DNA of 64,000 nt from Dehalococcoidia bacterium (GTDB lineage: Bacteria; Chloroflexota; Dehalococcoidia; Plut-88900): contig CBDFLQ010000007.1 of assembly GCA_965249275.1 (NCBI GenBank), positions 1 to 64,000 on the forward strand, given 5' to 3'. The position numbers were made by a program, and so were the translations under genes. Shown here one piece after another: positions 1 to 40,931 of the stretch; position 1 is the first letter of the stretch, and each line of letters begins with the position of its first letter. The notes below the pieces were generated by a model, which worked only from the letters and a program-made list of their open reading frames with translations, ran no database searches and had not been told where the DNA came from.

Positions 1-645
1 CGACTGATCCGTCACCCACCCAACCCAAGGAGGTAACAAAACCCAGGGGGAAACCCAGCCCCGACCACGTAACGGAGGACTCAACGTCTAAGCCCTCCCA
101 AAGGGCGGCCCACAAGCCGTCCCGCGGCTCAAGCGAACGCCGCCATCTCCTCTACCAAGGGCCCCGGCTATCCCTTACCCTGATCCCCGCGATGGAAGAC
201 GCCCTGGACCGTACTTAAAAGTCTCCTCACGGAGCAACCCGACCCATGGAGCGGAACGGGGCGGCCTGTAGCCGAGGTCCGCTCGGCTCTCCGTCCGCTT
301 CCTTAAATAAAACTGGGCTGCCGCCGTCTCCCGGCTCCTGGCTTCAGGCGGCGAACCGGATACCCCGTACTCCTGCGAGGGGAACTGACCCTGGACTTTC
401 CCCTTCCTGCACCCGCCCCCGGCGGACAGCGCAGCCAACCCTTATTGGAGCCTATGACGGATGACGGACCCGTACGTCCGACCATACTTCCAGGTCTAGG
501 CGGCGGCGGAGCCCCGTCCCCACGTTCCCGGGACGCCTCCATGCCCGCATTATCTAAATATAGGGAGCCGAATCCATAAGGCGTCTTCCATCACCGACCC
601 CCCAACAAACAAAACAGACAGAACTAAACCCGAACTGAATAAACA
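1..645 (+). ncRNA. Candidate large structured ncRNA / repeated non-coding element, copy 1 (5' end at or beyond window edge)
   Basis: Homologous to 40165-40800. GATGGAAGACGCC (191-203) is complementary to GGCGTCTTCCATC (580-592). Many local hairpins, e.g. AGCCGAG-gtccg-CTCGGCT, AGGGGAA..TTCCCCT, CCGCC-ccc-GGCGG, CGGAC-ccgtac-GTCCG. No reading frame conserved between copies. The repeat is certain; RNA function is inferred. Confidence 0.6.
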
Positions 646-651
646 TTCCCC

Positions 652-39936: not shown

Positions 39937-40073
39937 TCATTCCTGCGGAGGCAGGTCGCAGATGCGCCAAGGCGTGAAACCATCCCTCCTGAAGGCGCAC
40001 CCCCCGCCGAGCCGGAATCCATCCCTGGGGCCGAGGGGCCGCTCACCCTGAGCTCCGTCGAAGGGTCGAGCGG
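39937..40073. repeat. Cluster of REP-like palindromes
   Basis: TCATTCCTGCGGAGGCAGG...GGAATCCA (dRS3/RPE-like, interrupted) and CCGCTCACCCTGAGCTCCGTCGAAGGGTCGAGCGG (CCCTTCGAC..GCTCAGGG type on minus strand). Confidence 0.55.
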
Positions 40074-40128
40074 GGGGGCCGCACTTGCCGACCCGTCGCG
40101 CCCGCCCCCCAAAAGTGACACGAACCCC

Positions 40129-40158
40129 TTGACCAAACTTGTACACATGTACTATATT
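40129..40158 (+). promoter_or_regulatory. sigma70-like promoter with overlapping LexA-like box
   Basis: TTGACC (40129)-18 nt-TATATT (40153); GTAC-acat-GTAC at 40141-40152. Confidence 0.5.
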
Positions 40159-40164
40159 CACCCT

Positions 40165-40800
40165 TGAATGGCCAATCACTCACCCTAACCCCAAAGGAGG
40201 AACCACAACCCAGGGGGAAGCCCACCCGACCCCACCCGAGGACTCAACGCCTAAGCCCATCCCAACGGCCCTCGCGCAGACCCGCGGCACAAGCAAACGA
40301 CGCCATCTCCTCTTACCGGGCCCCGTGCCCCCTTCCCTGACCACTAGGCGATGGAAGACGCCCTGGACCGTACTTGAAAGTCTCCTTACGGAGCAACCTT
40401 GTCCTATGGAGCGGAACGGGGCAGCCCGTAGCCGAGGCCCGCTCGGCTCTCCGTCCGCTTCCTCAAATAAACTGGGCTGCCGCCGTCTCCCGGCTCCGGG
40501 ACATCGTCGGCTAACTGGATACCCCGTACTCCTGCGAGGGGAACTGACCCTGGACTTTCCCCTTCCTGCACCCGCCTACGGCGGACAGCGCAGCCAACCC
40601 TGCATCGGAGCCTATGACGGATGACGGACCCGTACGTCCGACCATACTTCCAGGTCTAGGCGGCGGCGGAGCCCCGTCCCCACGTTCCCGGGACGCCTCC
40701 TAGCCCGCATTATCTAAATGTAGGGAGCCTAATCCAGCAAGCGTCTTCCATCGTCAACCCTCCAACAAACCAAACCCCAACACCCAACCGAATAACCCAC
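40165..40800 (+). ncRNA. Candidate large structured ncRNA / repeated non-coding element, copy 2
   Basis: CGATGGAAGACGC (40349-40361) pairs with GCGTCTTCCATCG (40741-40753); 40607-40700 is identical to 447-540; begins just downstream of the promoter. Confidence 0.6.
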
Positions 40801-40808
40801 CCCCATCC

Positions 40809-40836
40809 GTCATTTCCGACCCCGATCGGGAATCCA
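40809..40836. repeat. dRS3/RPE-like REP palindrome
   Basis: GTCATTTCCGACCCCGATCGGGAATCCA. Confidence 0.55.
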
Positions 40837-40931
40837 TTCCCAAGCGGCAAGACCGGTCTCCCTCCCCCTAACCCCCGTCCTTCCCGGGAAGTCGTGACTC
40901 CCTGTGTGGGAAGACGCTTGGGACCTGGAGG

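What the first reader, a model, noticed from the sequence alone, without database searches (positions are those of the whole stretch)
40165..40800. Duplicated ~630-nt highly structured non-coding element: candidate new large ncRNA (second copy at 1-645)
Seen: two copies 40 kb apart in the same orientation and in unrelated gene contexts. The ~400-nt core (191-592 / 40349-40753) is about 90% identical by eye, including an identical 94-nt block (447-540 = 40607-40700), and the flanks are more diverged and A/C-rich. The core ends form a 13-bp long-range helix enclosing at least 7 stem-loops. Many substitutions fall in loops (CCGCC-ccc/tac-GGCGG; AGCCGAG-gtccg/gcccg-CTCGGCT; CTCC-tcac/ttac-GGAG) or linkers. 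The only shared ORF (MERNGAA...IGAYDG, 72 aa in both) reads in different frames over ~45 codons because of a -1 and a compensating +1 indel, so the conservation is not at protein level. No transposase or RT is nearby. Inference: a multicopy large structured RNA in the size class of OLE/ROOL/GOLLD that I do not recognise, or the RNA/ssDNA part of a non-autonomous mobile element.
Basis: partly seen in the sequence, partly recalled or inferred. Interest (0 to 1): 0.88.

Follow-up and report, generated by a model that had tools for sequence, protein, structure and literature searches.

The report
Transposon-borne structured RNA gene family
The duplicated 630-base stretch is one of at least 54 copies of a non-coding, promoter-carrying unit that encodes a highly folded RNA and has spread through one genus of sponge-associated bacteria, apparently as the cargo of a small transposon lacking its own transposase.

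Summary
Copy A (1-~650) and copy B (~40105-40845) are 87-88% identical and share the 94-nt identical block, the long-range helix and the frame-breaking 1-nt indels.

The scale was underestimated. The genome holds 54 units with the same ~250-nt 5' module, in at least 8 core subfamilies; the finding's subfamily has 11 copies plus one split copy.

Each unit has these parts:
- a GTGACAY box with a near-consensus sigma-70 promoter
- an invariant AAGGAGG with no start codon
- a conserved A/C-rich leader domain
- a long closing helix around a variable ~400-nt core
- a C-rich, G-poor tail

Evidence on what it is:
- No Rfam or Pfam match.
- Indels ignore the reading frame.
- Helices tolerate G:U but not A:C, and helices co-vary between subfamilies.
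- Orthologous copies are better conserved than the neighbouring genes.

Evidence on mobility:
- About 30 units in this genome carry ~27-bp imperfect terminal inverted repeats.
- Of 25 units with both ends, 19 have 5-bp target duplications.
- Some orthologous sites are empty in sister species.
- The 3' repeat resembles that of a resident IS481-like element.
- Insertions sit 5 bp upstream of -35-like hexamers.

The leader was found only in this genus. Best reading: a non-autonomous transposon family whose cargo is a structured-RNA gene. What the RNA does is unknown.

The parts
40115..40134 (+). Upstream box GTGACAC, then GAACCCC, then the -35 hexamer TTGACC. The box plus CCCCTTGAC is kept in 53 of 53 aligned copies, and the box also precedes a tRNA gene.
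40129..40158 (+). Sigma-70-type promoter: TTGACC, 18 nt, TATATT (10 of 12 matches). The transcription start near 40165 is inferred, not shown.
   Evidence: conserved across copies
40194..40200 (+). Invariant Shine-Dalgarno-like AAGGAGG with no start codon behind it. Inferred to be a 5' stabiliser of the STAB-SD type.
   Evidence: invariant in 63 of 63 aligned leaders; 1-2-nt indels directly downstream
40215..40337 (+). Leader domain closed by GGGAAG (40215-40220) pairing with CTTCCC (40332-40337). It contains the module GAGGACTCAACG...AGCCCATCCCAA, a variable hairpin, then GCGGCACAAGC...CGCCATCTCCTC (40238-40312).
   Evidence: the module is tandemly duplicated 2-3 times in related genomes
40347..40367 (+). 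5' strand of the long closing helix, GGCGATGGAAGACGCC, plus the CUGGA extension.
40368..40732 (+). Variable, highly paired core of subfamily G2, including the 94-nt block identical to copy A.
40733..40755 (+). 3' strand of the closing helix: TCCAG, CAA, GCGTCTTCCATCGTC.
40756..40805 (+). C/A-rich, G-poor tail. Only 52.7% identical between orthologues. Inferred to be a Rho-utilisation-like region; no intrinsic terminator was found.
40806..40841 (+). Short REP-like hairpin repeat (CCGTCATTTCCGACCCCGATCGGGAATCC) that also occurs about 15 times elsewhere in the genome. A possible 3' end of the RNA.
   Evidence: separate hits to 40796-40842
1..650 (+). Copy A, same subfamily, with its promoter cut off by the contig start. 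AAGGAGG at 27-33, closing helix at 189-203 and 580-592, C/A-rich tail at 593-650.

Best explanation
The two copies belong to a genus-specific superfamily of non-autonomous DNA transposons of the MITE or 'mobile insertion cassette' type, 0.65-0.9 kb long. Their passenger is a self-contained gene for a ~600-nt structured non-coding RNA.

Shown:
- Each unit carries a strong promoter with the organism's own GTGACAC upstream box.
- The conserved leader and the closing helix around a variable core are under RNA-level, plus-strand constraint.
- Many units are bounded by ~27-bp imperfect inverted repeats and 5-bp target duplications.
- Some orthologous sites are empty in sister species.
- Insertions lie 5 bp upstream of -35-like hexamers, pointing the same way as the downstream gene.

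Inferred:
- Units are moved in trans by a resident IS481-like DDE transposase whose terminal repeat resembles the element's 3' repeat.
- Cores are exchanged between copies by recombination through the conserved leader and tail.
- The RNA is made stable by the start-less AAGGAGG (as in STAB-SD leaders), the closing helix and a 3' hairpin, and transcription ends by Rho in the C-rich tail.
- The two window copies, which keep only the GTGACAC box and lack both repeat blocks, are old immobilised members kept by selection or gene conversion.

What the RNA does, for the element or for the host, is not known.
For: Copy number and modules:
- There are 54 leader-bearing units in G000, in subfamilies of 13, 11, 10, 6, 4, 3, 2 and 2 copies plus singletons.
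- The promoter box is kept in 53 of 53 aligned copies and also stands before a tRNA gene.

Non-coding:
- Indel lengths are multiples of 3 in only 4 of 31 core events and 8 of 54 leader events.
- There is no Pfam match and no Rfam match.

RNA structure:
- In 48 G2 copies from 7 genomes, 159 predicted pairs are 96.2% canonical, with 448 G:U cells against 86 A:C cells. Shifted controls give about 1:1.
- The plus strand folds with z = -2.36; the minus strand with z = -0.14.
- The closing helix comes in two co-varying forms: GAUGGAAGACGCC/GGCGUCUUCCAUC and GAUGGAAGGUCC/GGACCUUCCAUC.
- Its extension appears as CUGGA:UCCAG, UUGGA:UCCAA and CUGGC:GCCA.
- The leader hairpin keeps pairing with at least 6 different stems among 68 distinct segments.
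- The alpha-class cores are 87.4% canonical against 83.4 +/- 0.26% when columns are permuted; 0 of 300 permutations reach the observed value.

Constraint on orthologues (G000 against G002):
- Promoter 98.2%, leader 96.8% and core 97.3% identical, against 94.2-94.6% for the flanking ORFs.

Mobility:
- One site is empty in G001 (a 29-bp gap where G000 has 803 bp). Another is empty in G003 and G005 (1-2 bp where G000 has 776 bp).
- G000 has 30 5' and 29 3' repeat-like ends.
- Of 25 units with both ends, the 5-bp flanking repeats match 5/5 in 11 and 4/5 in 8. Permuted partners give 1.4% and 3%.
- TTG follows the duplication directly in 16 of 25 units.
- The downstream gene is co-oriented in 38 of 54 units.
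- The 3' repeat matches the IS481-like left repeat at 18 of 28 ungapped positions; 0 of 20,000 shuffles reach this. That IS also makes a 5-bp duplication.

Distribution:
- The leader covariance model hit 5 of 151 genomes of the class. All 5 are in the one genus, and 0 of 146 genomes in 110 other genera matched. By blastn, 8 of 8 same-genus genomes and 0 of 32 others matched.

Expression:
- Contigs from 4 metatranscriptome studies cover about 40242-40760. This is weak evidence.
Against: - The two window copies, and by rough count about half of the 54 units, lack the outer repeat blocks, so for them transposition is inferred from family membership only.
- 6 of 25 two-ended units show 3 or fewer of 5 matching flank bases.
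- The element's 5' repeat is not significantly like the IS repeat without gaps (7 of 28), and 5' against 3' needs a gap.
- The IS481-like protein scores below NCBIfam's curated cut-off (187 against 224 bits). No test shows that it moves these units.
- The 'empty' alleles at one site keep a sequence like the 3' repeat, so they may be deletions rather than pre-insertion sites.
- Compensatory-pair counts do not exceed column-permuted controls (25 against 24.4). At the column level, the C-to-U over G-to-A excess in pairs is modest (0.345 against 0.221 per site, compared with 0.487 against 0.423 in unpaired sites).
- High identity between orthologues could come from gene conversion among copies rather than selection.
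- Transcription is supported only by assembled contigs of a multicopy family. No start, end or strand was seen.
Confidence: 0.62

Rival explanations
1. A host-encoded multicopy family of trans-acting large structured RNAs, in the size class of OLE, ROOL or GOLLD. On this reading, copies spread by ordinary duplication and recombination, and the inverted repeats and flanking repeats come from unrelated small repeats.
For: - Own promoter, RNA-level constraint and covariation.
- Orthologous copies are better conserved than neighbouring genes.
- Copy B has stayed at the same site in 3 species, and another core type sits at that same site in 2 more.
- Both window copies converge on their downstream genes, so they cannot be leaders.
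Against: - 5-bp flanking repeats occur in 19 of 25 two-ended units, against 4.4% expected.
- The ends resemble an IS terminal repeat.
- Some orthologous sites are empty.
- There are tens of paralogues with presence/absence differences between close species.
- The family was not found outside one genus.
Confidence: 0.15
2. A cis-acting regulatory cassette. The unit would be a portable promoter plus a long structured leader, acting as a Rho-dependent attenuator or giant riboswitch that controls read-through into the gene downstream. Alternatively, its 3' repeat would supply an upstream element to the native promoter.
For: - The downstream gene is co-oriented in 38 of 54 units, mostly 60-400 nt away.
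- Insertions lie exactly 5 bp upstream of a -35-like hexamer in 16 of 25 units.
- The tail behind the closed fold is C-rich and G-poor.
- 4 of 13 G1 units precede paralogous amidohydrolase genes.
Against: - 16 of 54 units, including both window copies, face a convergent gene.
- The downstream genes are functionally diverse.
- The native promoter is kept between the unit and the gene.
- No ligand-pocket-like invariant core exists: the cores differ between subfamilies.
Confidence: 0.15
3. A guide or template RNA of an RNA-dependent mobile system: an omega-RNA of IscB/TnpB, an IS110 bridge RNA, an ORF-less group II intron, or a retron.
For: It is multicopy, structured and ORF-less, like orphan HEARO copies (recalled from knowledge, not from any call).
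Against: - No RVT_1, TnpB zinc-ribbon, Y1 transposase or IS110 DEDD domain was found in the 87%-complete genome, and each search rang in control genomes.
- There is no Rfam hit to HEARO, the IS605-orfB motifs or group II intron models.
- The promoter lies inside the repeated unit.
Confidence: 0.03
4. A small-protein gene family, using the 72-aa or 161-aa ORF.
For: Open frames exist on the plus strand and AAGGAGG lies upstream.
Against: - No start codon follows AAGGAGG.
- Frame-breaking indels dominate: 27 of 31 core events and 46 of 54 leader events are not multiples of 3.
- No Pfam family matches.
- Open frames are expected in T-poor sequence.
Confidence: 0.01

Closest known systems
MITEs and mobile insertion cassettes (non-autonomous, repeat-bounded elements moved in trans), for example Correia elements of Neisseria. 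This comparison is recalled from knowledge; of the MITE review PMC10969869 I saw only the search listing and abstract.
   Same: No transposase gene, terminal inverted repeats, short target duplications, tens of copies, intergenic location, internal promoter activity, and transcripts that fold.
   Different: It is 5-8 times longer than Correia-type MITEs. The interior is not a palindrome made by the repeats. It is a 600-nt asymmetric RNA with its own promoter, strand-specific G:U tolerance, co-varying helices and swappable cores. Insertion is aimed at the base just upstream of -35 hexamers.
Large 'ornate' bacterial ncRNAs (OLE, ROOL, GOLLD, HEARO)
   Same: Size class of about 600 nt, many helices, no coding capacity. 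Like HEARO, it is multicopy and tied to mobile DNA.
   Different: No Rfam model matches at gathering or at permissive thresholds. There are tens of copies per genome with variable cores. It was found in a single genus only. No IscB or TnpB partner exists.
IS481-family insertion sequences
   Same: The 3' terminal repeat begins TGTA and shares 18 of 28 positions with the resident IS481-like repeat. Both make 5-bp duplications.
   Different: There is no transposase ORF. The 5' repeat is diverged. The target differs: the IS copy examined sits in a REP-like hairpin, whereas the units sit upstream of -35 hexamers.
Putative mobile promoters ('promoter reuse in prokaryotes', PMC3575422; abstract seen)
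   Same: Near-identical promoter-bearing sequence upstream of unrelated genes within a genome.
   Different: Here the promoter drives its own long structured RNA, and the native promoter of the downstream gene is retained.
STAB-SD 5' mRNA stabiliser of Bacillus thuringiensis cryIIIA (recalled from knowledge; no paper read)
   Same: A perfect Shine-Dalgarno sequence near the 5' end with no start codon.
   Different: Only the sequence feature was seen. Stabilisation was not tested, and the RNA is non-coding throughout.

Membership tests
Rfam large ncRNA families (OLE, ROOL, GOLLD, HEARO, raiA, group I/II introns, IS605-orfB) | A covariance-model match at or near the family's gathering score | tested here: not met
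   There were 0 matches at gathering over the 64-kb window. In evalue mode there were only chance microRNA hits with E >= 0.5 on copy B. Nothing relevant appeared in 11 loci covering the other subfamilies.
Non-autonomous DDE transposon (MITE / mobile insertion cassette) | Terminal inverted repeats | tested here: met
   G000 has 30 5' ends (TGATCCCGTTCACATAGAGGGGTGACAT) and 29 3' ends (reverse complement TGTACTCGTTCGGTAGATTAGTGACAC). These align with one gap. Copies A and B in the window keep only the GTGACAC box, so the feature is not met for those two.
Non-autonomous DDE transposon (MITE / mobile insertion cassette) | Target-site duplication of fixed length | tested here: met
   Of 25 units with both ends, the 5-bp flanks match 5/5 in 11, 4/5 in 8 and 3 or fewer in 6. 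Permuted partners give 1.4% at 5/5 and 3% at 4/5. Offset controls give at most one 4/5 match each.
Non-autonomous DDE transposon (MITE / mobile insertion cassette) | Presence/absence at orthologous sites | tested here: met
   Two of the three sites examined have an allele lacking the unit in a sister genome. One of these may be a deletion. The third site (copy B) holds different core types in G003 and G007, and none in G001 and G006.
Non-autonomous DDE transposon (MITE / mobile insertion cassette) | An autonomous partner with matching ends in the same genome | tested here: inconclusive
   There is an IS481-like IS of 1056 bp in about 12 copies. Its left repeat matches the element's 3' repeat at 18 of 28 positions, and 0 of 20,000 shuffles reach this. 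It matches the 5' repeat at only 7 of 28 positions ungapped.
OMEGA / IS200-IS605 guide RNA, IS110 bridge RNA, retroelement RNA | A cognate TnpB/IscB, Y1 transposase, IS110 recombinase or reverse transcriptase in the genome | tested here: not met
   PF07282, PF01797, PF01548 and PF00078 each gave 0 hits in G000 (87% complete), and each rang in control genomes.
Riboswitch / cis-regulatory leader | Constant position upstream of functionally related, co-oriented genes | tested here: not met
   38 of 54 units are co-oriented with the downstream gene and 16 of 54 are not. The downstream proteins are diverse; the largest homologous group has 6 members.
CsrB-type protein-sponge RNA | A CsrA partner in the genome | tested here: not met
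   PF02599 gave 0 hits in G000.

The most novel reading that the evidence does not exclude
The RNA is not passive cargo. It is a new class of large structured RNA whose fold is needed for the element's own spread or retention. For example, it could scaffold or direct the transposase to promoter-proximal DNA, or protect the host promoter after insertion. On this reading, the conserved leader is a protein-binding handle and the exchangeable cores carry specificity. That would make this the first DDE-type transposon family with an obligatory large RNA component, and a natural promoter-seeking insertion system.
Probability: 0.15. Interest if true: 0.9.

Novelty: new variant of a known kind. Interest (0 to 1): 0.66.

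Why it matters
Non-autonomous bacterial transposons are usually short palindromic relics whose interior is not under selection. This family is different in three ways:
- Its interior is a complete transcription unit for a ~600-nt RNA that shows strand-specific structural constraint.
- The RNA is modular, with a conserved leader and swappable cores.
- The DNA inserts precisely upstream of promoter -35 hexamers.

The family makes up roughly 1.3% of a 2.9-Mb symbiont genome (54 units of about 0.7 kb) and occurs in all 8 genomes of the genus that were examined.

If the RNA acts for the element or for the host, this is a new way for a large structured RNA to arise and multiply. It would also be a natural system for promoter-targeted insertion. 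If the RNA does nothing, the family is still a clear case for studying how selection-like signals, such as covariation and G:U bias, can arise in selfish multicopy DNA through gene conversion.

Tried and rejected
Searches and tests that found nothing or were rejected:
- Rfam at gathering and at permissive thresholds, on the window, on copy B, on 11 loci of other subfamilies and on 5 loci of two other repeat families: nothing relevant.
- Protein-coding reading: rejected on indel lengths and the absence of any Pfam match.
- Guide-RNA and retroelement readings: no RVT_1, TnpB, Y1_Tnp or IS110 DEDD domain in G000.
- CsrB-like sponge, suggested by many GGA triplets seen by eye: no CsrA. The triplet excess was not tested.

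Structure analyses that gave little:
- RNAalifold on the MAFFT alignment of 63 leaders gave only 17 pairs and little covariation, because the variable hairpins are misaligned. I therefore folded the hairpin segments one by one.
- MAFFT Q-INS-i was not installed, so no structure-aware alignment was made and no R-scape was run.
- Counts of compensatory pairs in the alpha-core alignment did not exceed permuted controls.

Expression:
- Laying metatranscriptome contigs gave cover of about 40242-40760 in 4 runs, and little or none in the bins 40110-40190 and 40839-40919.
- Because these are contigs of a multicopy family, the uncovered bins are not evidence of transcript ends.

Literature:
- Four searches turned up nothing on such elements in Dehalococcoidia or sponge symbionts. 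Only listings and abstracts were seen, and no paper was read in full.
- Supplements were closed and were not needed.

Not attempted:
- I did not resolve how the units without outer repeats spread.
- I did not resolve why the 'empty' alleles at the L002 site keep a sequence like the 3' repeat.

Full report
**Observation**

The two stretches exist as described. Copy A (window 1 to about 650) and copy B (about 40105-40845) lie in the same orientation. They align at 88% mean column identity and 87.3% by blastn.
- The 94-nt identical block is present (447-540 = 40607-40700).
- The long-range helix GATGGAAGACGCC/GGCGTCTTCCATC is present.
- Two compensating 1-nt indels cross the only shared ORF.
- Rfam finds nothing at gathering thresholds in the whole window. 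On copy B at permissive thresholds it finds only chance microRNA hits.

**Scale and anatomy**

A search of the organism's own genome (2.9 Mb, 7 contigs, 87% complete) shows that the pair is a small part of a large family.
- 54 places share the first ~250 nt.
- Clustering the sequence downstream gives subfamilies of 13, 11 (the finding's, plus one split copy), 10, 6, 4, 3, 2 and 2, and three singletons.
- Every unit is about 650-870 nt long.

Alignments give a common plan, in this order:
1. A box, GTGACAY-N3/4-CCCCTTGAC, followed 17-18 nt later by a TAnnnT hexamer. It is kept in 53 of 53 aligned copies. In copy B it reads TTGACC-18-TATATT.
2. About 30 variable bases.
3. An invariant AAGGAGG with no start codon behind it.
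4. A conserved A/C-rich leader.
5. GGCGATGGAAG, which is one strand of a long helix.
6. A variable core of about 380-500 nt.
7. The other helix strand, CTTCCATCGCC.
8. A C/A-rich, G-poor tail.

The same GTGACAC box precedes a tRNA gene and two other repeat families. The promoter therefore follows the organism's own pattern for strongly expressed genes.

**Not coding**
- Among 48 copies of the finding's subfamily from 7 genomes, only 4 of 31 distinct indel events in the core have lengths that are multiples of three. In the leader it is 8 of 54.
- The ORFs have no Pfam match.
- The minus strand has no ORF of 60 aa or more inside the element.

**RNA-level constraint**
- The plus strand of copy B folds better than shuffles (z = -2.36). 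The minus strand does not (z = -0.14).
- On the 48-copy alignment, RNAalifold predicts 159 pairs that are 96.2% canonical. They hold 448 G:U cells against 86 A:C cells. With partners shifted by 1-3 columns the two counts are about equal.
- Part of this bias comes from fixed G:U pairs. At the level of variable columns the excess is modest.
- Between subfamilies the closing helix exists in two mutually compensating forms, AGACGCC/GGCGUCU and AGGUCC/GGACCU.
- Its extension changes as CUGGA:UCCAG, UUGGA:UCCAA and CUGGC:GCCA.
- Several core helices switch between G-C and A-U with few or no mismatches, for example 17 A-U and 19 G-C at one pair.
- The leader's variable hairpin keeps pairing with stems GGCC/GGCC, GGCCC/GGGCC, GGGCGGC/GCCGCCC, GGGCAGC/GCUGCCC, GGUCGC/GCGACC and GAGCG/CGCUC. 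It also tolerates a 40-nt insertion at its tip.
- In two species the leader module is tandemly duplicated two or three times.
- The statistics are not overwhelming. The percentage of paired cells exceeds all 300 column permutations, but the count of compensatory pairs does not.
- Between orthologous copies in G000 and G002, the promoter, leader and core are 96.8-98.2% identical. The flanking genes are 94.2-94.6% identical and the tail only 52.7%.

**Mobility**

The family is present in all 8 other genomes of the genus and in none of 32 genomes of other genera by blastn. A covariance model of the leader hit 5 of 151 genomes of the class, all in this genus. Record titles name these genomes 'MAG: Dehalococcoidia bacterium', and the runs holding the sequence are sponge metagenomes and metatranscriptomes.

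Three orthologous sites were compared across species:
- At one site a sister species has 29 bp where G000 has 803 bp.
- At a second site two species have 1-2 bp where G000 has 776 bp.
- At the site of copy B, two species carry the same subfamily, two carry a unit with a different core, and two carry none. This points to exchange of cores through the conserved flanks.

About 30 units in G000 carry an extra outer block at each end. The 5' block is TGATCCCGTTCACATAGAGGGGTGACAT. The reverse complement of the 3' block is TGTACTCGTTCGGTAGATTAGTGACAC. The two are imperfect inverted repeats.

Of 25 units with both blocks (17 in G000, 8 from other genomes):
- The five bases outside the two ends are identical in 11 and differ at one position in 8.
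- Permuted partners give 1.4% and 3% for these two classes.
- In 16 of 25, the duplication is followed at once by TTG, and in 8 of those by TTGAC. This is the -35 hexamer of what one empty allele shows to be the native promoter.

This target preference explains why 38 of 54 units point the same way as the gene downstream.

The genome has no reverse transcriptase, TnpB, Y1 or IS110 enzyme. It does have several DDE insertion sequences. One is a 1056-bp element with a 320-aa ORF whose best match is the IS481 family (E = 5e-55, below the curated cut-off).
- It makes 5-bp duplications.
- Its terminal repeat shares 18 of 28 ungapped positions with the units' 3' repeat; 0 of 20,000 shuffles reach this.

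**Interpretation**

The simplest account is a family of transposase-less DDE transposons whose passenger is a gene for a stable structured RNA.
- Shown: the anatomy, the non-coding nature, the strand-specific structural constraint, the repeats, the duplications, the polymorphic sites, the promoter-proximal target and the restriction to the genus among the genomes searched.
- Inferred: mobilisation by the IS481-like transposase, Rho-dependent termination in the C-rich tail, stabilisation by the start-less Shine-Dalgarno sequence (by analogy with STAB-SD, which I recall from knowledge), and core exchange by recombination.

The two window copies lack the outer repeat blocks, and both converge on their downstream genes. 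I take them to be old, immobile members. Copy B has stayed in place in three species and is better conserved than its neighbours.

What the RNA does is open. The rivals that matter are a host-serving trans-acting RNA and a cis-acting promoter or leader cassette. Neither is excluded for part of the family.

**Expression**

Assembled contigs from four independent metatranscriptome studies cover most of 40242-40760. Contigs of a multicopy family cannot show strand, ends or level, and the neighbouring genes are covered too. This counts only as weak support for transcription.

**Novelty**

MITEs with promoters and MITE-derived small RNAs are known. I know of no described repeat-bounded element whose interior is a ~600-nt RNA gene with a conserved leader and exchangeable structured cores, aimed at promoter -35 regions. 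Four full-text searches found none (listings and abstracts only). I class it as a new variant of a known kind.

Noticed in passing
G000:C5:156945, C5:477201, C5:735580(-), C6:946494, C7:453337, C7:724391 and 7 more (not in the window): A second repeat family of about 730 nt, with 13 copies. It has the same GTGACAC promoter box but a different leader (...GGAGTCCCATGAGTCGCA...). It reads as an open, arginine-rich frame of 216-409 aa that keeps its frame over 100 aa or more between copies. No Rfam match. One unit with the finding's leader (C7:250573) carries a core 72% like this family's.
   Followed up: partly
G000:C5:502434(-), C5:329503(-), C6:91444, C6:216931, C6:287397, C6:913811 and others: A third group shares GTGACAY...TTGCCCC(A/C)CCCC...TATAAT, followed about 100 nt later by CAATCAAA motifs. 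Its nature is unknown, and Rfam found nothing in two examples.
   Followed up: partly
window 40796-40842 and about 15 other places in G000; window 39937-40100: Short REP-like hairpin repeats flank many units on both sides: CCGTCATTYCCGAGGCTCCGCGAGGAATC, GGGGCGACCGGCTGGTCGCCCC and GGGAGAGGGCTAGGGTGAGGGTGA. The last of these forms the ends of a 1344-bp rve-type IS present in about 8 copies.
   Followed up: partly
G000:C7:521098-522153 and other copies (C6:525070, C7:452670, C7:460031, C7:901915): IS copies of three families sit within a few hundred bases upstream of several units. The IS481-like copy at C7:521098 has inserted into a REP-like hairpin 65 nt before a unit's GTGACAC box.
   Followed up: partly
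window 1: Contig C7 begins inside copy A, just after where its promoter would lie. The assembly probably broke on this repeat family, so the genome's copy number may be undercounted.
   Followed up: no
G000:C5:615142-615890: One unit of the finding's subfamily ends 5 bp upstream of the TTGGAC-17-TATAAT promoter of a tRNA gene. Its 5-bp duplication, GCATT, overlaps the -35 hexamer.
   Followed up: partly
L002 site: G003:C7:655100-655500, G005:C1:1372200-1372600: The alleles lacking the unit still carry a sequence 21 of 27 identical to the unit's 3' terminal repeat, next to the single copy of the duplicated TCAGC. This could be a solo end, a deletion product or a footprint. It remains unexplained.
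   Followed up: partly
G000 downstream genes of the units: Six units precede paralogous amidohydrolase-like genes and three precede luciferase-like monooxygenase-like genes. I did not test whether this reflects the expansion of these gene families in the genome or a real association.
   Followed up: no
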